DNA from: a virus
Lineage: Duplodnaviria; Heunggongvirae; Uroviricota; Caudoviricetes
Strand: one strand, 5' to 3'
DNA length: 64,000 bases
Virus record (IMG/VR): IMGVR_UViG_3300047393_000100
In this document: one piece after another, positions 347-58,045 of the stretch
Layout of the letters: each line of letters opens with the position of its first letter
How positions within the stretch are numbered: the stretch's first letter is position 1
Program-made: the position numbers and the translations under genes
Notes under the pieces: model-generated
What the model was told of the DNA's origin: nothing
Databases searched by the model: none
What the model saw: only the letters and a program-made list of their open reading frames with translations

Positions 347-470
347 AGGAGAGGTAGTGAAGCTGTAGTTGAGAAGTAGAGTGTATTAATTGTCGAAAAA
401 GGGTTTATAGTAAACAGACGTCACTCATTGCACTTAACCAGAAACCCTGAAATACCCGAAGCCTCTCTTA
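347..470 (+). ncRNA. conserved structured non-coding element, copy A (paralog of 57335-57417)
   Basis: About 75 nt alignable to copy B. The stem GGGTTT..AAACCC here corresponds to GGGTTA..TAACCC in copy B, a compensatory change. It contains the shared core ACTCATTGCACT. Confidence 0.35.
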
Positions 471-3437: not shown

Positions 3438-4172
3438 ATGGCACAAATATTTAAAGTAGGAGGTTGCATCAGGGATAAGTTTCTGGGCATCGATTCAAAG
3501 GATATAGATTTTACATTCGTTTGTGAAGAATCACAGACAGTTGAGCAGGGTTGGTTAGAGATGCGATCTTGGATGCTTGAGAGAGGATTTGAAATCTTCT
3601 TAGAAACACAAGATTGTTTTACAATCCGAGCAAAGTTTCCAAAGGACCATCAGTTCTCTGGATTGGTTGCAGATTTTGTAATGGCAAGAAAAGAGGTTGG
3701 ATACGTTGAAGGAACCCGTAGACCTATTTTAGAATTGGGTACTCTGGAAGATGATTTACTTCGTAGAGACTTTACCTTAAATGCCCTAGCAGAAGATATT
3801 GATGGAAACATTATTGATCTTTTTGGTGGTATTGAAGATTTAAAGATGGGAATTCTAAGAACTCCAATGGATGCTAACATTACAATGATGGATGACCCAT
3901 TAAGAATTTTAAGAGCCTTAAGATTTACAGTTACTAAGGATTTCTTTATGAGCGATGATATTTGGGAAGCAATGAAACAACCAAACATCTTAAAGAAACT
4001 TGAACAAACCGTAAGTAGTCAAAGAATCAGAGAAGAACTACTTAAAATGTTTCAATTTAACACACCAAGAACATTTAGATTGTTAATGGATGTAGATGAA
4101 ATTATCCCTGGGTTCTTAGAATTGATTTTTAAAGATGGAATGTGGTTACAACCCACTACTAAAAAAATATAA
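3438..4172 (+). CDS. tRNA nucleotidyltransferase (CCA-adding) / poly(A) polymerase family, head domain
   Basis: N-terminal GGCIRDKFLG..DIDF matches the GGxVRD..DxD nucleotidyltransferase head motif. 244 aa, shorter than a full cellular enzyme. Confidence 0.65.
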   Translation: MAQIFKVGGCIRDKFLGIDSKDIDFTFVCEESQTVEQGWLEMRSWMLERGFEIFLETQDCFTIRAKFPKDHQFSGLVADFVMARKEVGYVEGTRRPILELGTLEDDLLRRDFTLNALAEDIDGNIIDLFGGIEDLKMGILRTPMDANITMMDDPLRILRALRFTVTKDFFMSDDIWEAMKQPNILKKLEQTVSSQRIREELLKMFQFNTPRTFRLLMDVDEIIPGFLELIFKDGMWLQPTTKKI

Positions 4173-25648: not shown

Positions 25649-26449
25649 ATGAAAAACGATGCATTAGGCGATCGCATGAAAGAGTTCTACGAAGATAGAA
25701 CCAGAATCAAACTTCCAAGAAGAACTTACACAATTATTCGAATTGATGGTAAGGCATTCCACACTTACACTAAAGGATTAACAAGACCATTTGATGAGGG
25801 TCTAATTGAAGACATGAATGCAACTACTGCATATTTATGTAAAAACATCCAAGGCGCTAAATTCGGTTATGTGCAATCAGATGAGATTAGTTTAGTCTTA
25901 ACAGACTTTGATGACTTAGGAACTCATGCTTGGTTCGACAACAACTTACAGAAAATGGTAAGTGTTGCTGCTTCTATGGCAACTGCAGAATTCAATAAAC
26001 TTAGGTTAATGCGATTCATGAAAGATAGCATGATCTTTTTAGAACCTGAAGATATTGGAAAATTCAAAATGGCTGAGTTCGACGCTAGAGCATTTCAAAT
26101 TCCATTTATCGATGAGGTAGAAAACTATTTTATTTGGAGACAACAGGATGCTGTAAGAAATTCAATCTCTTCAGTTGCACAAAGTCTTTATAGTACTACA
26201 GAATTACATGGTAAAAAAACAAGTGATATGCAAGAATTGATCTTCCAGAAGGGAATTAACTGGAATGATTATGATTTTCGTTTGAAACGAGGCGCAATAA
26301 TCGGAAAGGTAGAAGTTGTAACTACAACTAGCGATGTTAATTACACGAGAAATAAATGGCAAGTTATTGAAACTCCAACATTTACTCAAGATAGATTTTT
26401 TATTAAAGGATTACTAAACACTAAAAAGAAAGAAAATGAATTGGTTTAA
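25649..26449 (+). CDS. tRNA-His guanylyltransferase (Thg1)-like protein
   Basis: N-terminal MKEFYEDRTR..LPRRTYTIIRIDGKAFHTYTKGL matches the Thg1 N-terminal catalytic region. Confidence 0.6.
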   Translation: MKNDALGDRMKEFYEDRTRIKLPRRTYTIIRIDGKAFHTYTKGLTRPFDEGLIEDMNATTAYLCKNIQGAKFGYVQSDEISLVLTDFDDLGTHAWFDNNLQKMVSVAASMATAEFNKLRLMRFMKDSMIFLEPEDIGKFKMAEFDARAFQIPFIDEVENYFIWRQQDAVRNSISSVAQSLYSTTELHGKKTSDMQELIFQKGINWNDYDFRLKRGAIIGKVEVVTTTSDVNYTRNKWQVIETPTFTQDRFFIKGLLNTKKKENELV

Positions 26450-37524: not shown

Positions 37525-38817
37525 ATGTACTTAGCCGAAATACAAGAGTTTATAGATGCTCAGAATTCTACAAATTCAAATACTGACAAATTAAATGTTT
37601 TAAAGCAATACGCAGATAATGAATCTGTAAAAAAAGCGCTTGAATATACATATAACACATTTAAACAGTATGGTGTTACTTCAACAAATTGCAAGAAACT
37701 TAGCCATCTTTCGAGTTATGGTTTTTCTTCTCTTTTTGATTTATTAGATGATTTAAATTCTAGACATCTTACCGGACATAATGCAATTAGTTGTGTTAAT
37801 GGATTTGTAGAGGCAAATAAAAGACACGAGGATTTAATCTTTTCTATTATTGATAGAAATCTTAAAACTCGTTCAACAACCTCCATGATTAACAAGGTGA
37901 TTCCTAATTTAATTCCAACGTTTGATGTTGCTTTGGCAAATTCATATGATGAAAAAACTGCAAAGAAAGTTAACATGAATGAAGATGTTTGGTACGTTAG
38001 TAGAAAATTAGATGGATGCAGATGTATTTGTATTATTGATGAAAATGGAGAACCTACTTATTTTTCAAGAGGAGGAAATGAATTTCTAACACTTAAAAAT
38101 TTAGATGCTGAAATCATTTCGTTAGGTCTTAAGAATATGGTAATTGATGGAGAAATTTGTATGATGGATGCAAATGGAAATGAGAATTTCCAAGGTATCA
38201 TTAAAGAAATCAAACGCAAAGATCATACGATTAAAAATCCATTCTTTTATATGTTTGATATTCTAACAATGGATGCGTTTATTACAAAGGAAGGAACAAC
38301 TCCATTTTCAATTAGAAATGTTCAATTAGACAATTTATTCTTTGAAAAGGAATTTAAAAATATTGGATATTTAGAACAAACGATTTTGATTGATGAAAAA
38401 ATGTTAACCTATTACATTGGAGTAGCCAAAGAGCAGGGATGGGAAGGACTTATGTTACGCAAAGATGCAACATACCAAGGAAAACGTAGTAATGATATTT
38501 TAAAGGTTAAGCAATTTTATGATGCAGAATATATAGTAGTTGATTTAGAGAATGCAATCAATAGGGTTATAGTTGATGGTAAAGAGGTTGAAGAGATGAT
38601 GTTAAAAAATATCATTATAGAACATAAAGGAAGCAGAGTGCAAGTTGGTAGTGGATTTTCACATGAACAAAAACGTCATTACTTTACAAATCCTAAAGAA
38701 ATTCTTGGAAAACAAGTGACGGTACAGTATTTCGAAGAAACACATAACCAGAACGGCGGTACAAGCTTAAGATTTCCAACTATAAAAACAGTATGGGAAA
38801 CTAAAAGAAATATCTAA
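37525..38817 (+). CDS. ATP-dependent DNA ligase
   Basis: Motif I KLDGCRC (KxDG) plus downstream adenylation and OB-like motifs. Confidence 0.7.
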   Translation: MYLAEIQEFIDAQNSTNSNTDKLNVLKQYADNESVKKALEYTYNTFKQYGVTSTNCKKLSHLSSYGFSSLFDLLDDLNSRHLTGHNAISCVNGFVEANKRHEDLIFSIIDRNLKTRSTTSMINKVIPNLIPTFDVALANSYDEKTAKKVNMNEDVWYVSRKLDGCRCICIIDENGEPTYFSRGGNEFLTLKNLDAEIISLGLKNMVIDGEICMMDANGNENFQGIIKEIKRKDHTIKNPFFYMFDILTMDAFITKEGTTPFSIRNVQLDNLFFEKEFKNIGYLEQTILIDEKMLTYYIGVAKEQGWEGLMLRKDATYQGKRSNDILKVKQFYDAEYIVVDLENAINRVIVDGKEVEEMMLKNIIIEHKGSRVQVGSGFSHEQKRHYFTNPKEILGKQVTVQYFEETHNQNGGTSLRFPTIKTVWETKRNI

Positions 38818-39410
38818 TGCTGATTGCACCTCCTACTGGTTCTTATGAATTAGAACTTTATATACAATGGTTAAAGAAACATAACCTTACATGCAATATA
38901 TTAACGCCTGACGTTACCAAAATAGATCAACCATTATTATTATGTGGAGGAGCAGATGTCGGTATAAATAAAAGGAGAGATAGGTTAGAATTTAATTGGA
39001 TACGAAGTGCTATTGAAAATGGACAACCTATAATTGGAGTGTGTAGGGGAATGCAACTCTTGAACGTTTATTTTGGAGGAATAGTAAAAAGTTTAAATGA
39101 AACTATTACCGAATCACATAGATTAGATTCATTTGAAGACGATGATGACCACGGCAAGAGAGTTTCACAATACCATTTGGTAAAGGATCTTGATGGAAAC
39201 CAAATAATGGTTAATAGCAGACACCATCAATATTGTTATAAGATTGCAAAGAATTTTAAAGTAACATATACATCAATTGATGGTGGAAATATACCAGAGG
39301 CGTTTGAAGATAGGTCACGTGGTATTTATGCAGTTCAATGGCATCCTGAAAGATTTGAGTCTGATAATAATATGATTCCATTAAACTTTTTAAATGAAAC
39401 AAATATTTAA
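38817..39410 (+). CDS. class I glutamine amidotransferase-like protein (peptidase C26 / gamma-glutamyl hydrolase type)
   Basis: GVCRGMQLLN nucleophile elbow and a downstream His (VQWHPE). Confidence 0.6.
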   Translation: MLIAPPTGSYELELYIQWLKKHNLTCNILTPDVTKIDQPLLLCGGADVGINKRRDRLEFNWIRSAIENGQPIIGVCRGMQLLNVYFGGIVKSLNETITESHRLDSFEDDDDHGKRVSQYHLVKDLDGNQIMVNSRHHQYCYKIAKNFKVTYTSIDGGNIPEAFEDRSRGIYAVQWHPERFESDNNMIPLNFLNETNI

Positions 39411-40289: not shown

Positions 40290-40451
40290 ATGGAAGATTT
40301 ATTAAACCAAATCGTAGCAGCAGTTGATTCAGTAAGAGAAGACGCAGCTAAATTTGAAGAAAAAGGAAATGGTGCTGCTGGAACTAGGGTTCGTAAGGCA
40401 ATGCAAACTATTAAGACCCTTGCACAGGATGTAAGAGTTCAAGTATCTGAG
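40290..40451 (+). CDS. small Ala/Lys-rich protein (possible nucleoid-associated)
   Basis: 53-aa ORF preceded by a variant box TTTAAAACAAACAAAA; not in the ORF track. Confidence 0.35.
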
Positions 40452-40713
40452 GCTAAAAAAGTCTAATTGATTTAAAAAACTGTTCGAGTAGGCATTAAGA
40501 CTTATTCACTCTAATGCTAAAGTGGTGGACTCCATATAAAGATAAAGGTTACTAATCAAAAACGACATTGAATAGTTCTGATACTGGACTTGAGATTAGC
40601 GCGGTTAAATTCCGAAGTGATATAAGTTTTAAATGGGATAGGCTAGTTTCTTATATTGCAAATTTTTAAATGATATATATTATCGATGTTCTTATACATA
40701 TTAAATTATTAAA

Positions 40714-40853
40714 GGTTCCTTACAGCAATTAAATTCTATAAGGAAACAGAAGTCGAAAGACGTTGTAGGTTCGAGTCCTACCTCTCCAACAAATATTAAA
40801 TTATTTGGAGAGTGGAGGAATTGGTATACTCATCTGTCAAAGAAAACGGAACC
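40714..40853 (+). ncRNA. circularly permuted / split tRNA-like element
   Basis: The 3' half (40746-40789) comprises anticodon-stem 3' strand ACAGA, a variable hairpin, T-arm GTAGG-TTCGAGT-CCTAC and 3' acceptor strand CTCTCCA. After a 17-nt linker comes the 5' half (40806-40837): acceptor TGGAGAG, which is the perfect complement, then TG, a D-arm GAG..CTC, and anticodon-stem 5' strand TCTGT, the perfect complement of ACAGA. Flanking GGTTCC (40714) pairs with GGAACC (40848). Confidence 0.4.
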
Positions 40854-40860
40854 TGTATTT

Positions 40861-40933
40861 GGGGCTATGGTGAAATTGGTTATCACGCTGCCCTTGCACG
40901 GCTGTATTCAGAGTTCGAATCTCTGTAGCTCCA
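40861..40933 (+). tRNA. tRNA-Ala (anticodon TGC)
   Basis: Acceptor GGGGCTA/TAGCTCC carrying the G3:U70 Ala identity pair. D-arm GTGA-AATTGGTTA-TCAC, anticodon loop CTTGCAC, T-arm CAGAG-TTCGAAT-CTCTG; 73 nt. Confidence 0.8.
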
Positions 40934-41017
40934 CTCTATTTTTAAAGGATACGTTCAGCAAATTAAAAAACTTGATCTGTAAATTCAACAAAAAGTTATC
41001 CTGTAAAATATTAAAAT

Positions 41018-41103
41018 GCTCGGGTGGTGAAACTGGTAGACACGCTGGACTTAAAATCCAGTTGACAGCAATGTCAGTGCGGGTTCGATTCCCGCCCCGA
41101 GTA
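41018..41103 (+). tRNA. tRNA-Leu (anticodon TAA), type II
   Basis: Acceptor GCTCGGG/CCCGAGT, anticodon arm CTGGA-CTTAAAA-TCCAG, long variable arm TGACA..TGTCA, T-arm GCGGG-TTCGATT-CCCGC; 86 nt. ORFs 40867..41109(+) and 40908..41165(-) overlap it and are spurious. Confidence 0.8.
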
Positions 41104-41111
41104 CTATAAAT

Positions 41112-41196
41112 GGAAGATTGGCAGAGTGGTCGATCGCGGCAGTCTTGAAAACTGTTGTACTGCAAGGTACCGTAGGTTCGAATCCTACATCTTCCG
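41112..41196 (+). tRNA. tRNA-Ser (anticodon TGA), type II
   Basis: Acceptor GGAAGAT/ATCTTCC, anticodon arm GCAGT-CTTGAAA-ACTGT, variable arm GTAC-TGCAAG-GTAC, T-arm GTAGG-TTCGAAT-CCTAC; 85 nt. Confidence 0.7.
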
Positions 41197-41331
41197 CCTT
41201 TTTCAATTTATTAATAAAAAAAAGTAAATTGAAGTTAAGTCTTTAGAATAAGACATTAAAGAATTCAAATGTTGGAATGTTAATTATTCCTAAAATTACT
41301 ATAAAGGTGATGTTAGTAACCTTCCAACAAT

Positions 41332-41402
41332 GGGCTGTTCGTTTAGAGGCAAGACGCGAGACTCCGACACTTGAAAGATGGGTTCGATTCCCATACGGTC
41401 CA
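41332..41402 (+). tRNA. tRNA-Arg (anticodon CCG)
   Basis: Acceptor GGGCTGT/ACGGTCC with two G-U pairs, D-arm GTTT-AGAGGCA-AGAC, anticodon loop CTCCGAC, T-arm ATGGG-TTCGATT-CCCAT; 71 nt. Confidence 0.6.
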
Positions 41403-41570
41403 CAAAATTAATAATGTCTTCGATATTCTGTTGTATTTTCATGAACTACAATAGAGTATGTTAGGTTGAAATGCCTTGCTACCGCCAAGAGTTAAGGCTT
41501 TTAAAGTCTGGGCTACGAACAGTCGGAGTCAATATTGAAAATATTATTAATCTTATTAAACTATTTAAAA

Positions 41571-41837
41571 ATGAATGAAGTAGCAGTAACAGTATTACCA
41601 CATCCCATAACGACTTTTATCTTAGGGGCCTTAATTTTCTCAATGGCATTTATCTTTATGGAATTTAAAAGGCTTGTCGCGGAGACAAAGACATTTAATA
41701 TTCTACTTAAAAAATTAGAAGAACATTGTGACAAAATGGAAATCAGCTTTGACAATAAATTGGACGAAGTTTCAAGAAAGGTAGATTCAAGAGTTGATAA
41801 AGCTATTTCTGTTGCTAGAAGAAAAATAGATAAATAG
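41571..41837 (+). CDS. membrane plus coiled-coil hypothetical protein inside the tRNA cluster
   Basis: ORF 41535..41837; the more likely start is MNEVAVT at 41571. The coding status of a gene inside a tRNA array is uncertain. Confidence 0.35.
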   Translation: MNEVAVTVLPHPITTFILGALIFSMAFIFMEFKRLVAETKTFNILLKKLEEHCDKMEISFDNKLDEVSRKVDSRVDKAISVARRKIDK

Positions 41838-41844
41838 TTAAATT

Positions 41845-41916
41845 GGTCCATTCGTTCAACGGTTAGGATGCTACCCTGTCACGGTAGCGATGAGAGTTCG
41901 ATTCTCTCATGGACCG
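41845..41916 (+). tRNA. tRNA-Asp (anticodon GTC)
   Basis: Acceptor GGTCCAT/ATGGACC, anticodon arm CTACC-CTGTCAC-GGTAG, T-arm GAGAG-TTCGATT-CTCTC; 72 nt. Confidence 0.8.
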
Positions 41917-42083
41917 CTTCTTAAAACCGAATCACGTTAAGGTAGTAGTAGTCTCGTGCGGTAACGATGAAACAGTCGTTGAGTCTTTTAGAACAAGACA
42001 TAAAAGAATTCGAAACCTTAGAAGTAATTCTTAAAACTATCAATGAAGGTGATATCGGTGACCTTCTAATCCACACAAAAATG

Positions 42084-42105
42084 GGGCTTCGGTCCCATTT
42101 TTTTA
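42084..42105 (+). terminator. Rho-independent terminator closing the tRNA cluster
   Basis: GGGGC-UUCG-GUCCC stem-loop followed by T7. Confidence 0.7.
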
Positions 42106-42152
42106 TGAAACAAACTCTCTACTTTTAATATAAATACTAAAATCATATTAAC

Positions 42153-42578
42153 ATGAAAGATATATTACTATTTTGGCCTCGATTCTTTAATGAGGCATGG
42201 ATTACAAGAAAATACTACAATGCAGTTAAAGGTATTGAAAAAGAATTAAATAAATCTAATTTAAGAATTGATTGGATTGGTAGAATTTATGGTGTTGTAG
42301 AAATCAAAGAAGAATTTAGAACACAACCTGAAATGATACAGCAATCAATGGTATTTCAGGAATTAGGACCAATTAACGAAATTCTAATGAAATATGGTTT
42401 ATCTGATTTATCATATCCTGAAATAAGTAAAATTCCAGAAACAAACCAATTTCTTGTAGTTTTATATCCTGAAAATGATTACTTCAATACAATTTCTTTC
42501 TTAAGAAATATCATTTTCTTAGGTATATTATTCGGTGCTAGTTTTTTAGTAAATGAGTTAATTAACTTATTTGTATGA
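42153..42578 (+). CDS. hypothetical protein with C-terminal TM helix
   Basis: ORF. Confidence 0.45.
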   Translation: MKDILLFWPRFFNEAWITRKYYNAVKGIEKELNKSNLRIDWIGRIYGVVEIKEEFRTQPEMIQQSMVFQELGPINEILMKYGLSDLSYPEISKIPETNQFLVVLYPENDYFNTISFLRNIIFLGILFGASFLVNELINLFV

Positions 42579-57240: not shown

Positions 57241-57440
57241 AAGAACCTGCTACATAACACGGCGCCAAATTAATTGTGACATGTACTATCTGGAAGGTCA
57301 GGTCAGGTTCTTTAGATTTACCAATGCTCGCTGTTAATTGAGAGGTAGAGGGTATTAATTTCCGAACAAGGGTTAATAGTAGGAAGACGCCACTCATTGC
57401 ACTCAATCAGTAACCCTGCTCTTGTTCTTCTAATGTGAGA
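57241..57440 (+). ncRNA. conserved structured non-coding element, copy B
   Basis: 9-bp stem AAGAACCTG..CAGGTTCTT. The segment 57345-57417 aligns to 347-470 with a compensated stem (GGGTTA..TAACCC). Upstream parts also align to 160-267. Confidence 0.35.
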
Positions 57441-57482: not shown

Positions 57483-57573
57483 AATCGGTTGGTGTAAGAT
57501 CTGGAGTTCTAGACGATGGTAACATGGGCGGCCTGGCGCTGCTATGATAAGGGTTCGAATCCCTTACCGATTT
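57483..57573 (+). tRNA. type II-length tRNA-like gene, identity unresolved
   Basis: Perfect 7-bp acceptor AATCGGT/ACCGATT and T-arm AAGGG-TTCGAAT-CCCTT. I could not find a canonical anticodon arm among the 91 nt. Confidence 0.35.
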
Positions 57574-57612
57574 CAAATAATTAGATTGAACACAATTATT
57601 GACACGGCTCTG

Positions 57613-57679
57613 CAGAGCTAGGAGAGGTTTGGTTAGCTCTGTACAGTACAAGCACGAGGTTCGAATCCTCGCTCTCCAC
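57613..57679 (+). ncRNA. tRNA-like 3' domain, homolog of 40746-40789
   Basis: 8-bp hairpin CAGAGCTA..TAGCTCTG whose loop contains GGAGAG. Then T-arm CGAGG-TTCGAAT-CCTCG and 3' acceptor strand CTCTCCA, the same acceptor sequence as the permuted element at 40782. Confidence 0.3.
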
Positions 57680-57979
57680 TAAAAACTACTTGAGTAGGTG
57701 GGAGTGGTCAATCAACAACTCACCGAAGTTTCAGGTAAAAACTATATAGAAACGGGATGGCCGAGCCCATATAGGTAAGTAGGAAGTTAGTGTTTTTTTA
57801 GGAGGATTGGATTAGTTTTTAACATTAACGAAAGGAGTCAAGTAATATGTAATGGCAAAGTTGGTTATGTCATCCTGTAAAAAAGGTTATATCGTCGCAA
57901 GTTCGAGTCCTGCCTTGACCACGCTAATTAAACTAGTTTATGAACAGTCTTTGAGGTGAGATGCCTTCATTAGAACGGA

Positions 57980-58045
57980 AGTCAGGTGAAAGTAGGCTAA
58001 GACGAATTAAGTTTCGCGTTGCAGGTTCGATTCCTGTCCTGACTA
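57980..58045 (+). ncRNA. short tRNA-like element (66 nt)
   Basis: Perfect acceptor AGTCAGG/CCTGACT and T-arm GCAGG-TTCGATT-CCTGT, but too short for a D-arm plus anticodon arm. Confidence 0.3.

What the first reader, a model, noticed from the sequence alone, without database searches (positions are those of the whole stretch)
40714..40853. Apparently circularly permuted (3' half then 5' half) tRNA-like gene
Reading 5'->3' on the + strand, a complete tRNA 3' half comes first: anticodon-stem 3' strand ACAGA, a variable hairpin GTC-GAAA-GAC, a perfect T-arm GTAGG/TTCGAGT/CCTAC, the 3' acceptor strand CTCTCCA and a discriminator A. After 17 nt comes the matching 5' half: TGGAGAG (exact complement of the acceptor), TG, a D-arm with GG, and TCTGT (exact complement of ACAGA). 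Three independent perfect complementarities in the wrong linear order argue against chance. The whole unit is bracketed by GGTTCC (40714) and GGAACC (40848), so the precursor could bring its ends together for cleavage. Permuted tRNA genes are known from a red alga and some archaea; I know of none in a phage. The same genome encodes a candidate end-healing and sealing toolkit that could in principle mature such a precursor: a P-loop kinase, HAD phosphatases, a ligase, a CCA-adding enzyme and Thg1. A related 3' domain with the identical CTCTCCA acceptor lies at 57613-57679.
Basis: partly seen in the sequence, partly recalled or inferred. Interest (0 to 1): 0.8.

Follow-up and report, generated by a model that had tools for sequence, protein, structure and literature searches.

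The report
Phage Y-RNA-like sealed tRNA mimic
The "back-to-front tRNA" is real and conserved, but it is most likely a phage non-coding RNA that mimics a tRNA with a sealed tip, of the Y-RNA type that partners Ro60-like proteins, and not a gene for a working tRNA.

Summary
They are not chance. A covariance model built only from other phages' sequences finds this site at 68 bits (E 2e-14), and all stems show compensatory changes in 17 relatives.

It is not a tRNA gene awaiting end-joining. It belongs to a large phage RNA family with three parts:
- a tRNA-shaped body whose acceptor stem is closed by a loop;
- a 7-bp terminal stem at the open end, followed by a conserved CUUACAGCAA motif;
- a CCUGU tail.

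The same "handle" also occurs on ~57-nt RNAs with no tRNA body, including one at 40946-41002.

Family members lie beside, and co-oriented with, a ~470-aa DUF2828/vWA protein whose predicted fold is Ro60. This is the layout of YrlA-type Y RNAs, already described in the literature as resembling circularly permuted tRNAs with closed acceptor stems.

The window copy has no anticodon loop and no BHB motif. Its relatives have shortened or tetraloop-capped acceptor hairpins.

The handle and the protein family differ from classical YrlA/TROVE, and Rfam does not call these RNAs. No Ro60-like gene lies in this 64-kb window, so the partner here is inferred.

Verdict: new variant of a known kind.

The parts
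40713..40719 (+). Terminal stem P1, 5' strand (AGGTTCC)
   Evidence: Pairs with 40848-40854. P1 pairs in 94% of cells, with compensatory changes in 7/7 pairs, in 63 family members. GGTTCC/GGAACC becomes GGTTTC/GAAACC in relatives.
40720..40728 (+). Conserved single-stranded handle motif TTACAGCAA. With C40719 it reads CTTACAGCAA.
   Evidence: CAGCAA is invariant in alignments A4 and A5, although it was part of the retrieval pattern. The un-imposed upstream positions read C (68%), U/A, U (71%), A (69%) in 91 units. The exact 11-mer CCTTACAGCAA occurs once in the window.
40729..40745 (+). 5' linker (TTAAATTCTATAAGGAA), A/U-rich; part of the large asymmetric internal loop
   Evidence: Conserved in the near subgroup. 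No consistent pairing with the 3' linker.
40746..40750 (+). Anticodon-stem equivalent, 3' strand (ACAGA; tRNA positions 39-43)
   Evidence: Pairs with 40833-40837. 92.7% of cells paired, 5/5 pairs with changes on both sides.
40752..40761 (+). Variable-arm hairpin GTC-GAAA-GAC (class II tRNA type)
   Evidence: GUC/GAC becomes AUC/GAU in L219. The same GTCGAAAG...GGTTCGA arrangement occurs in 102 ordinary class II and other tRNAs out of 120 pattern matches.
40765..40781 (+). T arm GTAGG/TTCGAGT/CCTAC
   Evidence: 100% paired in A4 and 99.7% in A5. The T-loop motif was found.
40782..40812 (+). Sealed acceptor hairpin: CTCTCCA (40782-40788), 17-nt A/U-rich cap (40789-40805), TGGAGAG (40806-40812)
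   Evidence: 7 bp; 92.7% paired in A4 and 95.7% in A5, with 7/7 pairs covarying. Cap length is not conserved: 4 nt in L001, and 2-8 nt in most of the family.
40813..40832 (+). U8-G9 equivalents (TG), D arm GAG/GAATTGGTATA/CTC, and A26 equivalent
   Evidence: D stem 100% paired; GAG/CUC, GUG/CAC and GCG/CGC all occur. The GG of the D loop is invariant. The U8-like T is present in 78 of 85 units.
40833..40837 (+). Anticodon-stem equivalent, 5' strand (TCTGT; positions 27-31)
   Evidence: Partner of 40746-40750.
40838..40847 (+). 3' linker CAAAGAAAAC (A-rich)
   Evidence: An A-rich run before P1' is a family feature; the model consensus reads AAAAA.
40848..40857 (+). P1 3' strand GGAACCT plus conserved tail GTA (reads CCUGU)
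   Evidence: After P1' the next bases are G in 87%, U in 71% and U in 70% of 91 units, and these positions were not imposed by the search. tRNA-Ala starts at 40861, so RNase P cleavage there would set the 3' limit of this RNA.
40946..41002 (+). Second, short family member: handle only (AGGATAC GTTCAGCAAATTA ... small hairpin ... GTTATCCT, then GT), with no tRNA body
   Evidence: R1 scores 23.9 bits, E 0.002, aligning P1, CAGCAA, the A-run and P1'. It is conserved downstream of the long unit in L124 and L126. A structural scan finds only these two handle units in non-coding DNA of the window.

Best explanation
Window 40713-40854 most likely encodes a stable non-coding RNA of about 140 nt of the Y-RNA type. 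More precisely, it is a YrlA-like tRNA mimic.

Shown:
- It folds into a tRNA cloverleaf in which the acceptor stem is closed by a loop, so there is no free CCA end.
- The anticodon loop is replaced by an internal loop and a 7-bp terminal stem formed by the RNA's own 5' and 3' ends.
- Next to that stem sits a conserved single-stranded CUUACAGCAA motif, and after it a CCUGU tail.
- This 'handle' defines a large phage RNA family. Its variable insert is either a tRNA-like body or a small hairpin.
- Family members are encoded beside, and co-oriented with, a protein that has the Ro60 fold (DUF2828 ring domain plus a vWA domain with an intact DxSxS MIDAS motif).

Inferred:
- The handle docks the Ro60-like ring, as Y RNA stems dock Ro60.
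- The tRNA-shaped module presents an intact elbow and a 12-bp acceptor/T helix to a tRNA-recognising partner. Because it is sealed, it cannot be charged or trimmed at the 3' end.
- It therefore acts as a tether or gate that couples the Ro60-like protein to tRNA surveillance or repair. In this phage that would sit alongside its own tRNA cluster, CCA-adding-type enzyme and Thg1.
- The RNA is probably co-transcribed with the downstream tRNAs, and its 3' end is freed by RNase P cutting at tRNA-Ala (40861).
- For this particular genome the protein partner must be encoded outside the 64-kb window or supplied by the host.
For: Structure and family membership:
- R1, trained without this sequence, hits at 68.3 bits, E 2e-14.
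- Covariation supports the structure in A4 and A5 (90.8% paired against 63.1% shuffled; covariation score 0.743 against 0.215).
- The handle is shared by short units.
- Un-imposed positions of the motif and tail are conserved.

Protein link:
- A DUF2828+DUF7788 gene is present in 35 of 103 RNA-bearing loci, and on the same strand in 36 of 36 RNA-gene pairs.
- It is present in 44 of 116 RNA-pattern loci against 3 of 120 control loci retrieved by a tRNA pattern, and at least 2 of those 3 (L071, L097) also carry strong family RNAs.
- Starting from the protein, 78 new loci gave 72 R1 hits, all on the gene's strand. Of the 20 hits at 45 bits or more, 19 lie upstream and 11 within 600 nt of the gene.
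- 16 of 45 matches in bacterial genome contigs also carry the gene.

Fold:
- The AlphaFold model has pLDDT 83 and pTM 0.84.
- The top 11 PDB matches are all full-length Ro60/TROVE proteins: Xenopus and human Ro60, Deinococcus Rsr and Thermus phage phiLo Ro60 (E 7.5e-8 to 2.3e-5, TM 0.43-0.64).
- Supporting hits: PHROG 850 'RNA-binding protein'; weak Pfam vWA_Ro60; MIDAS D273/S275/S277 invariant.

Cultured phages:
- E. coli phage VpaE1: 66 bits, about 1 kb downstream of the gene, inside the tRNA cluster.
- Mycobacteriophage DyoEdafos: three units directly after the 'Ro-like RNA binding protein' gene, followed by a terminator.
- Cyanophage BUCT-ZZ01 and Listeria phage LMSP-25: units directly flanking the gene, with RtcB and an RNA ligase nearby in LMSP-25.

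Precedent:
- YrlA RNAs have the same order (V-T-closed acceptor-D inside a 5'/3' stem), lie next to Ro60 genes on the same strand, and occur in phages (PMC4201824; 10.1101/312249; PMC12135203).
- A paralogous unit in relative L056 scores 34.5 bits on Rfam YrlA.
Against: - No Ro60-like, TROVE or DUF2828 gene is found in the 64-kb window by a family HMM run over all six-frame ORFs. None is found within the DNA held for the nine closest loci. Only 2 of about 15 Leu-like ('type B') loci have one.
- Rfam YrlA gives no hit on the window copy even at E<=10.
- YrlA's GNCGAAN0-1G motif is not at the 5' end here.
- Binding of the handle to the Ro60-like protein is untested.
- Co-orientation is weak evidence in phages, whose gene modules are usually co-oriented.
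- R1 hits below about 50 bits also fall on ordinary tRNA pairs, so only the strong hits count.
- Expression and the RNA ends are unverified. The promoter-like site at 40656-40683 is no better than chance.
Confidence: 0.65

Rival explanations
1. True circularly permuted tRNA gene. The terminal stem and internal loop are cut out, the ends are ligated to make an anticodon loop, and RNase P and a 3' nuclease then open the acceptor loop. The phage CCA-adding enzyme finishes a functional, chargeable tRNA.
For: - All four tRNA arms are present in permuted order, with a perfect 7-bp acceptor stem and an A at the discriminator position.
- The phage encodes a CCA-adding-type enzyme and Thg1.
- Most 'type A' family members keep a hairpin with a 7-nt loop that looks like an anticodon loop: U33-like in 73%, purine-37-like in 92%.
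- Authors of the YrlA structure raised the same possibility.
Against: - The window copy has no sequence from which a 7-nt loop with U33 could be assembled.
- There is no bulge-helix-bulge motif. The only candidate 4-bp helix, UUCU/AGAA, has both 3-nt flanks on one strand and does not covary in L125 or L036.
- The 'leader' is the most conserved part of the unit and also exists without any tRNA body.
- Acceptor hairpins in the nearest relatives are shortened, mismatched or tetraloop-capped.
- No splicing endonuclease, RtcB or Rnl-type ligase was seen among about 40 window ORFs scanned. The ligase present is of DNA-ligase type.
Confidence: 0.04
2. Two-piece tRNA-like RNA. The RNA is made as above, but RNase P cuts the 17-nt acceptor cap at the 5' side of U40806. 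The upstream piece is then trimmed and given CCA. The result is a nicked, CCA-tailed molecule held together by the anticodon-like and terminal stems, as reported for Mycobacterium smegmatis YrlA.
For: - M. smegmatis YrlA, which has a 7-bp acceptor stem, is cleaved by RNase P in vitro and carries added CCA in vivo (PMC4201824).
- The window copy has exactly 7 bp and a long single-stranded cap.
- A phage CCA-adding-type enzyme is encoded at 3438-4172.
Against: - The long cap is not conserved, even in the closest relative (L001 has a 4-nt cap).
- Most family members have 2-8-nt caps, which are poor RNase P and 3'-trimming substrates.
- Selection therefore appears to act on a closed hairpin.
Confidence: 0.12
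3. Ro60-independent decoy. The sealed tRNA mimic works alone as a sponge for a host tRNA-targeting defence nuclease or another tRNA-binding factor, and the handle only stabilises the ends.
For: - There is no Ro60-like gene near this copy or its nine closest relatives.
- It lies within a phage tRNA cluster, alongside tRNA-repair enzymes.
- A sealed acceptor end would resist 3'-end attack.
Against: - The handle's primary sequence (CUUACAGCAA and the CUGU tail) is conserved far beyond what end-stabilisation needs.
- The handle occurs without any tRNA body directly beside Ro60-like genes.
- The window copy lacks an anticodon loop, which is the target of most known anticodon nucleases.
Confidence: 0.14
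4. Non-functional relic of a tandem tRNA duplication, or simply a structured 5' leader of the tRNA operon.
For: - Permuted order is what a tandem duplication followed by loss of both outer halves would leave.
- Type A units still carry a 2-3-nt duplicate of the anticodon-stem 5' strand after the D arm.
- The element lies 6 nt upstream of tRNA-Ala.
Against: - Ninety-one distinct units, plus hits in cultured phages of Proteobacteria, Actinobacteria, Firmicutes and Cyanobacteria, show compensatory changes in every helix.
- The unit is 97-100% conserved across 207 of the 239 Felixounavirus genomes that carry it.
- Many units are not followed by a tRNA.
Confidence: 0.03

Closest known systems
YrlA-type bacterial and phage Y RNAs (Rfam RF02553; Chen et al. 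2014, PMC4201824; Wang et al. 2018, 10.1101/312249)
   Same: - The 5' and 3' ends pair.
- Inside lies a tRNA-like domain in the order variable region, T arm, closed acceptor stem-loop, D arm.
- The T and D loops are conserved for the elbow.
- There is no free CCA.
- At family level, members are encoded next to and on the same strand as a Ro60-fold protein.
- They occur in phages.
- They are described in print as resembling circularly permuted tRNAs.
   Different: - The protein-side module differs. Here it is a short 7-bp terminal stem plus single-stranded CUUACAGCAA and a CCUGU tail. YrlA has a long bulged stem with GNCGAAN0-1G.
- The linked protein is Pfam DUF2828+DUF7788, not TROVE. Sequence searches barely connect the two, and only the fold does.
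- Most members keep an anticodon-arm-like hairpin, which YrlA lacks.
- The acceptor hairpin is usually exactly 7-8 bp.
- Rfam's model scores 34.5 bits at best on a paralogue (gathering score 69) and gives nothing on the window copy.
Yrl1/Yrl2 of Thermus phage phiLo with phiRo60 (PMC12135203; PDB 9KOP, 9L5Y)
   Same: A phage-encoded Ro60 homologue has small RNAs encoded immediately beside the gene. The RNAs bind the ring and host PNPase in vitro. The phiLo Ro60 structure is the second-best fold match to the DUF2828 protein model.
   Different: The phiLo RNAs are stem-bulge-stem RNAs defined by a CGAA motif. The text read here does not describe a tRNA-like body for them. The protein is a recognised TROVE-domain protein.
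Circularly permuted tRNA genes of Cyanidioschyzon merolae and some archaea
   Same: The gene order has the 3' half before the 5' half. The acceptor strands are joined by a short linker, and the ends pair beyond the anticodon stem.
   Different: Those precursors carry a bulge-helix-bulge motif, are circularised by the splicing endonuclease and a ligase, and yield a normal anticodon loop and a chargeable tRNA. None of these features is found here.
Two-piece (permuted) tmRNA genes
   Same: In the gene, the T arm and 3' acceptor strand come before the 5' acceptor strand.
   Different: There is no tag reading frame and there are no pseudoknots. ARAGORN and the Rfam tmRNA models find nothing here. 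The unit is only 142 nt long.
Dictyostelium Class I RNAs (Rfam RF01414; PMC7919456)
   Same: - A terminal stem starting with a conserved G.
- Immediately after it, a single-stranded CCUUACAGCAA, which is present exactly at window 40718-40728.
- A variable middle.
- A 3' stem strand followed by CUGU.
- A length of about 57 nt for the short phage units.
- Rfam sub-threshold hits of 19-29 bits.
   Different: - The host is a eukaryote, with its own promoter element.
- The known binding protein is an RRM protein.
- No tRNA-like insert has been reported.
- Scores are below Rfam's gathering score of 41.5, and there were no hits in a 66-kb set of cultured-phage loci.
- Whether this is homology, horizontal transfer or convergence is undecided.

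Membership tests
YrlA-type Y RNA | The 5' and 3' ends form a stem that encloses a tRNA-like domain in the order (V)-T-acceptor-like stem-loop-D | tested here: met
   Sequence, end-to-end model alignment and covariation in all helices.
YrlA-type Y RNA | The acceptor-like stem is a closed hairpin, with no free CCA and no anticodon loop | tested here: met
   A 7-bp stem with a 17-nt cap at 40782-40812, and no anticodon loop in the window copy. Closed hairpins are found family-wide.
YrlA-type Y RNA | GNCGAAN0-1G motif near the 5' end (the proposed Ro60 contact) | tested here: not met
   The only match, GUCGAAAG (40752-40759), is the loop of the variable hairpin. That configuration occurs in 102 ordinary tRNAs out of 120 pattern matches. 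The conserved 5' motif is CUUACAGCAA instead.
YrlA-type Y RNA | Encoded within about 4 kb of, and on the same strand as, a Ro60 orthologue (this locus) | tested here: not met
   No hit to the DUF2828/vWA family HMM among all six-frame ORFs of the 64-kb window. Pfam scans of about 40 ORFs show no TROVE domain. The rest of the genome could not be fetched.
YrlA-type Y RNA | Encoded next to, and on the same strand as, a Ro60-fold protein (family level) | tested here: met
   - 36 of 36 RNA-gene pairs are on the same strand.
- The gene is in 44 of 116 RNA-pattern loci against 3 of 120 control loci.
- 11 of 20 strong hits lie within 600 nt of the gene.
- The fold match to Ro60 has E 7.5e-8 to 2.3e-5.

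YrlA-type Y RNA | Reaches Rfam RF02553's gathering score (69 bits) | tested here: not met
   No YrlA hit on window 40300-42300 at E<=10. The best score in a relative's paralogous unit is 34.5 bits.
YrlA-type Y RNA | Bound by the Ro60 protein in vivo; carries tRNA-type modifications (TruB, DusA) | not testable with these tools
   Needs immunoprecipitation and modification mapping.
Circularly permuted tRNA gene (C. merolae / archaeal type) | The 3' half lies upstream of the 5' half, with complementary acceptor strands | tested here: met
Circularly permuted tRNA gene (C. merolae / archaeal type) | Leader and trailer form a bulge-helix-bulge motif at the joining site | tested here: not met
   Between the anticodon-like stem and P1 the strands are 26 nt and 10 nt. 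The only 4-bp candidate helix (UUCU/AGAA) has both 3-nt flanks on the same strand and is not maintained in L125 or L036.
Circularly permuted tRNA gene (C. merolae / archaeal type) | Joining yields a 7-nt anticodon loop (U33, anticodon, purine 37) | tested here: not met
   No combination of the bases flanking UCUGU (CAAAGAA...) and ACAGA (...UAAGGAA) gives U at position 33.
Circularly permuted tRNA gene (C. merolae / archaeal type) | Canonical 7-bp acceptor stem and a removable linker, conserved among orthologues | tested here: not met
   L001 has 4+3 bp with a C.A mismatch and a UUUA cap, L124 has a bulged hairpin, and L129 is imperfect with a GAAA cap.
Circularly permuted tRNA gene (C. merolae / archaeal type) | A splicing endonuclease and an RNA ligase are available | tested here: inconclusive
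   None was seen among about 40 window ORFs. The ligase at 37525-38817 is an ATP-dependent DNA ligase by Pfam. Smaller ORFs, the rest of the genome and the host were not examined.
Two-piece tmRNA | Tag reading frame, pseudoknots and recognition by tmRNA models | tested here: not met
   ARAGORN finds no tmRNA. Rfam gives only a 6-bit T-loop fragment.
Dictyostelium Class I RNA (RF01414) | Short 5'/3' stem with a 5' G, an adjacent CCUUACAGCAA, and a CUGU 3' end | tested here: met
   GGTTCC + CCTTACAGCAA (40718-40728, exact) + GGAACC-TGT (40848-40856). The same features appear in the family consensus at positions not imposed by the search.
Dictyostelium Class I RNA (RF01414) | Length 42-65 nt and the Rfam gathering score (41.5 bits) | tested here: not met
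   The long unit is 142 nt and scores 22 bits, E 0.46. The short unit at 40946-41002 is 57 nt but gave no RF01414 hit. The best phage unit scores 29.3 bits.

The most novel reading that the evidence does not exclude
The terminal-stem/CUUACAGCAA/CUGU handle may be the same RNA module as in Dictyostelium Class I RNAs. On this reading the phage RNAs and Class I RNAs form one cross-kingdom class of small RNAs whose handle docks Ro60-fold (DUF2828-type) proteins, with the middle of the RNA (a tRNA mimic here) as an exchangeable effector module. That would give the long-unexplained Class I RNAs a candidate partner and function. It would also show that Y-RNA-like systems are far more widespread than TROVE annotation suggests. 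The evidence does not exclude convergence, and I could not check whether dictyostelids encode a DUF2828 protein.
Probability: 0.15. Interest if true: 0.8.

Novelty: new variant of a known kind. Interest (0 to 1): 0.55.

Why it matters
For this finding, it replaces an exotic reading (the first permuted tRNA gene in a phage) with a better supported one: a Y-RNA-type tRNA mimic, a kind known since 2014.

Beyond the window, following it up brought out several things I could not find described in the searchable literature or in Rfam:
- A distinct, very common phage RNA family with its own conserved handle.
- The family is linked to the DUF2828/DUF7788 proteins encoded in 705 cultured phage genomes. 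Most are annotated as hypothetical, and some as 'Ro-like RNA binding protein'. These proteins adopt the Ro60 fold.
- Members sit unannotated, or mis-called as tRNAs, in workhorse phages: Felix O1-like coliphages, cluster L-type mycobacteriophages, Listeria P100-like phages and cyanophages.

What a sealed tRNA mimic does for a Ro60 ring is an open question for YrlA as well. These phages make it testable by genetics and biochemistry.

The find also warns annotators that 'half tRNAs in the wrong order' in phage tRNA clusters are likely to be these RNAs.

Tried and rejected
- A normal-order tRNA that explains the stems: none found by ARAGORN, by Rfam at gathering scores, or at E<=10.
- GUCGAAAG as YrlA's Ro60-binding GNCGAANG motif: rejected. 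Of 120 viral matches to GTCGAAAG...GGTTCGANTCC, 102 were ordinary tRNAs, mostly Leu, Ser and Tyr.
- The exact 13-mer ATATTAAATTATT, present both upstream of the unit and in the acceptor cap, as a promoter or processing signal: not conserved in relatives, and matches with up to 2 mismatches are not enriched in the window.
- Bulge-helix-bulge motif: not present (see the membership test).
- Extending the window to look for a Ro60-like gene: the look-up of encoding contigs returned only contigs of 3.3 kb or less.
- Linking DUF2828 to Ro60 by sequence: the PDB profile search gave only E~1 hits in the vWA region and Pfam gave vWA_Ro60 at E 0.02-0.04. A fold comparison was needed.
- Using all R1 hits at E<1e-3 as family members: rejected after control loci showed 30-45-bit hits on ordinary tRNA pairs. 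Only hits of about 45-55 bits or more were used.
- Rfam Class I model on cultured-phage loci: no hits at E<=5 in 66 kb.
- Sources that were not available: the afdb50 fold library, the supplements of Chen 2014 and the 2020 Annual Review on bacterial Ro60.
- The 57613-57679 element as a relative: it is a normal-order minihelix and not a family member.
Full report
**1. The observation**

- The unit runs from 40713 to 40854 on the + strand.
- The terminal pairing is 7 bp, AGGTTCC/GGAACCT.
- tRNA-Ala starts 6 nt further on, at 40861.
- Neither ARAGORN nor the Rfam tRNA models find a normal-order tRNA here, even at E<=10.
- The minimum-energy fold is more stable than every one of 200 shuffles (z = -2.9). 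On its own that is weak evidence. The strong evidence is comparative.

**2. Relatives**

- An exact-match scan of viral contigs found a close relative (L001).
- Looser patterns then found the same unit in eight further distinct forms.
- Ninety-one distinct sequences from those loci also close a 6-bp terminal stem.

The shared architecture, 5' to 3', is:
- A-GG terminal stem;
- N-U-N-CAGCAA;
- an A/U-rich linker;
- a tRNA body;
- an A-rich linker;
- the terminal stem's 3' strand, followed by U-G-U.

The body contains a T arm, a closed acceptor hairpin, U8-like and R9-like bases, and a D arm.

The majority, here called type A, also have a hairpin before a 5-nt variable loop.
- Its loop is 7 nt long and resembles an anticodon loop: U33-like in 73%, purine-37-like in 92%, A38-like in 84%.
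- Support for this helix in the MAFFT alignment is only 64%.

The window's subgroup, type B, is Leu-like.
- It has a 3-bp D stem, a GAAUUGGUAKA loop and a class II variable hairpin.
- It keeps the anticodon stem but has no anticodon loop. The stem leads straight into the handle.

**3. Covariation**

Type A alignment A5, 63 sequences:
- 90.8% of cells form standard pairs, against 63.1% after shuffling and 34-43% when partners are slid.
- The covariation score is 0.743 against 0.215.
- Pairing by helix: terminal stem 94% (7/7 pairs with changes on both sides), acceptor hairpin 95.7% (7/7), T arm 99.7%, D arm 98.4%.

Type B alignment A4, 17 sequences including the window:
- 90.1% paired against 71.9% after shuffling.
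- The ACAGA/UCUGU stem is 92.7% paired, with 5/5 pairs changed on both sides.
- The acceptor hairpin is 92.7% paired.

Covariance model R1 was built from A5 only.
- It finds the window unit at 68.3 bits, E 2e-14, over the full model.
- It finds one further unit at 40946-41002 (23.9 bits) that has the handle but only a small hairpin in place of the tRNA body.
- A structural scan confirms that these are the only two handle units in non-coding DNA of the window. Both end in CCUGU.

**4. Why it is not a tRNA precursor**

- The window copy has nothing from which a 7-nt anticodon loop with U33 could be assembled, and it has no bulge-helix-bulge motif.
- The 'leader' is the best conserved part of the unit.
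- The leader also exists without any tRNA body, often in tandem with tRNA-like units. Examples are relatives L056 and L097, Listeria phage LMSP-25 and mycobacteriophage DyoEdafos.
- The acceptor hairpin is under selection as a closed hairpin.
  - The window's closest relative, L001, replaces the 17-nt cap with a 4-nt cap on a mismatched stem.
  - L124 and L129 are also non-canonical.
- The 13-mer shared by the cap and the upstream flank is not conserved.

**5. The protein link**

One relative, L097, encodes a 481-aa DUF2828+DUF7788 protein 3.7 kb downstream on the same strand.

Starting from the RNA:
- Searching all loci held found the protein in 35 of 103 RNA-bearing loci. It was on the RNA's strand in 36 of 36 pairings, often within 300 nt.
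- With a family profile, 46 loci carry the protein.
- As a control, the 120 loci retrieved by a plain class II tRNA pattern hold the protein in only 3. At least 2 of those 3 (L071, L097) also contain strong family RNAs.

Starting from the protein:
- 78 new loci gave 72 R1 hits, all on the gene's strand.
- Of the 20 hits at 45 bits or more, 19 lie upstream of the gene and 11 within 600 nt.
- Caveat 1: R1 also gives 30-45-bit hits on ordinary tRNA pairs, so weak hits were not counted.
- Caveat 2: co-orientation alone means little in phages.

In bacterial and archaeal genomes:
- A pattern scan of 596 Gb found only 45 matches.
- About 28 of them are strong R1 hits, and 16 carry the protein nearby. 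One is in the Succinimonas amylolytica isolate genome.
- The system therefore looks essentially phage-borne.

**6. What the protein is**

- Pfam gives DUF2828 plus DUF7788, with weak VWA_2 and vWA_Ro60 hits.
- The vWA MIDAS residues D273, S275 and S277 are invariant.
- PHROGs places it in family 850, 'RNA-binding protein'.
- A profile search of PDB sequences reaches Ro60 only at E about 1.
- An AlphaFold model of P0018 from a 57-sequence alignment has pLDDT 83 and pTM 0.84.
- The model's 11 best PDB matches are all full-length Ro60/TROVE proteins: Xenopus and human Ro60, Deinococcus Rsr and Thermus phage phiLo Ro60. E-values run from 7.5e-8 to 2.3e-5, TM-scores from 0.43 to 0.64, and about 520-540 columns align. 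The next matches are isolated vWA domains at E>0.01.
- The protein is encoded in 705 cultured phage genomes. Some annotate it as 'Ro-like RNA binding protein'.

**7. Cultured phages**

R1 finds strong, unannotated units in the following phages:
- E. coli phage VpaE1: 66 bits, inside the tRNA cluster, 1 kb after the Ro60-like gene.
- Mycobacteriophage DyoEdafos: 62 bits, flanked by two short units, directly after the 'Ro-like' gene and before an intrinsic terminator.
- Cyanophage BUCT-ZZ01: 56 bits, directly after the gene.
- Listeria phage LMSP-25: three short units directly before the gene, with RtcB and an RNA ligase a few genes further on.

The VpaE1 unit is present in 239 mostly Felix O1-like genomes. 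It is unannotated in most of the records listed, and labelled as a tRNA or a hypothetical protein in a few.

**8. Comparison with what is known**

The layout matches YrlA Y RNAs (PMC4201824):
- a terminal stem from the two ends;
- then V, T, a closed acceptor-like stem-loop and D;
- a position next to and co-oriented with a Ro60 orthologue;
- presence in phages.

Further points of contact:
[quoted passage not shown] They discuss the algal and archaeal permuted pre-tRNAs as look-alikes (10.1101/312249).
- M. smegmatis YrlA, which has a 7-bp stem, is cut by RNase P and receives CCA. This is why a two-piece form of the window RNA is kept as a rival.
- Phage Ro60 with adjacent Y-like RNAs that also bind host PNPase has been shown for Thermus phage phiLo (PMC12135203).
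- Jumbo-phage surveys mention a TROVE protein with a tRNA-like partner (PMC7824862).

The present family differs in four ways:
- the handle (CUUACAGCAA and a CUGU tail, not GNCGAAN0-1G);
- the protein family (DUF2828, not TROVE);
- the frequent retention of an anticodon-arm-like hairpin;
- invisibility to Rfam's YrlA model at its threshold.

Full-text searches found no description of this RNA family or of RNAs associated with DUF2828. Subscription-only literature was not searchable.

**9. The window's own context and the main gap**

- The window is phage-like. Genes are co-oriented and include an HNH nuclease, an amidase, thymidylate synthase, NAMPT and others.
- It carries tRNA genes, a CCA-adding-type nucleotidyltransferase (3438-4172), Thg1 (25649-26449), two metallophosphatases and an ATP-dependent DNA ligase.
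- It has no Ro60-fold gene. Neither does the DNA held for the nine closest loci.
- Relatives come from contigs of up to 256 kb, so the gene may lie elsewhere. I could not fetch more of the genome.
- For this copy the Ro60 partnership is therefore an inference from family membership. That is why confidence is 0.65 and not higher.

**10. An unexpected resemblance**

Rfam's only hit on the unit is the Dictyostelium Class I RNA model (22 bits, E 0.46). Short units in a relative reach 29 bits.

Class I RNAs are defined by four features (PMC7919456):
- a terminal stem with a conserved 5' G;
- an adjacent single-stranded CCUUACAGCAA;
- a variable middle;
- a CUGU 3' end.

In the 91 phage units, the positions my search did not impose read C-U-U-A before CAGCAA, and G (87%), U (71%), U (70%) after the terminal stem. 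The window has the 11-mer exactly.

This could be convergence. It is recorded as the most novel reading not excluded.

**11. Verdict**

- The 'permuted tRNA' description is correct as anatomy, but the maturation-to-tRNA mechanism is not supported.
- The element is best explained as a Y-RNA-type sealed tRNA mimic, belonging to a large and apparently unannotated phage family tied to Ro60-fold DUF2828 proteins.
- It is a new variant of a known kind.

Noticed in passing
window 40718-40728 and 40853-40856; family-wide (L332 4664-4928, L331 5462-5728, L056): The handle matches the defining features of Dictyostelium Class I RNAs: a 5' G stem, CCUUACAGCAA, a CUGU tail, and a length of about 57 nt for the short units. 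Rfam RF01414 gives sub-threshold hits of 19-29 bits. Positions not imposed by my search are conserved. One family member lies in a giant-virus MAG contig (L131).
   Followed up: partly
window 40946-41002: A second, short family member with the handle and a small hairpin but no tRNA body. It lies between tRNA-Ala and tRNA-Leu and is conserved in L124 and L126.
   Followed up: yes
window 57483-57575, 57621-57677, 57838-57921, 57980-58043, and about 95-172: A cluster of tRNA-like minihelices, each with an acceptor stem and a canonical T arm but an irregular or shortened core. Neither ARAGORN nor Rfam at gathering score calls them. They are in normal order and are not members of the handle family.
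   Followed up: partly
window 365-449 and 57343-57428: An ~85-nt repeat, about 85% identical between the two copies. Each copy lies just upstream of a tRNA or tRNA-like gene. One stem carries a compensatory change (GGGUUU/AAACCC versus GGGUUA/UAACCC). There is no Rfam match and the function is unknown.
   Followed up: partly
alignment A5 (type A units from L128-L243): The 2-3 nt after the D arm pair with the last bases of the anticodon-like hairpin's 3' strand (79% and 84% for the 27-43 and 28-42 equivalents). The 5' strand of the anticodon stem is thus present twice. This is the footprint expected if these units arose from tandem tRNA genes.
   Followed up: partly
L328 (E. coli phage VpaE1, KM657822.1 26308-26432) and 238 other, mostly Felix O1-like, genomes: The family unit is 97-100% conserved across most of these mainly Felixounavirus genomes. 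It is unannotated in most of the records listed, or labelled as tRNA-Ile/Met, tRNA-Thr or a hypothetical protein.
   Followed up: yes
L330 1737-2137; L332 3470-4021 and 983-1081: The Ro60-like genes of cultured phages sit in islands of non-coding RNA genes. Cyanophage BUCT-ZZ01 has a permuted tmRNA there (112 bits). Listeria phage LMSP-25 has a ROOL-like RNA (88.5 bits, just under the gathering score) and a drum RNA, with RtcB and an RNA ligase downstream.
   Followed up: no
L330 7711-7824: In tandem arrays, the Rfam tRNA model can read a 'tRNA with a 40-nt insert' across two adjacent units: acceptor 5' strand and D arm from one unit, anticodon arm and T arm from the next. This explains some of the mis-annotations as tRNAs.
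   Followed up: no
window 40698-40710 and 40793-40805: The exact 13-mer ATATTAAATTATT occurs twice, once immediately upstream of the unit and once in the acceptor cap. It is not conserved in relatives.
   Followed up: yes
window 37525-39410; L056 3648-6002; L126 5538-6857: An ATP-dependent DNA ligase lies 2-3 kb upstream of the RNA cluster in the window, L056 and L126. In the window and L056 a glutamine amidotransferase/peptidase C26 gene follows it. The ligase has a weak secondary hit to the RNA_ligase family (E about 2e-4).
   Followed up: no
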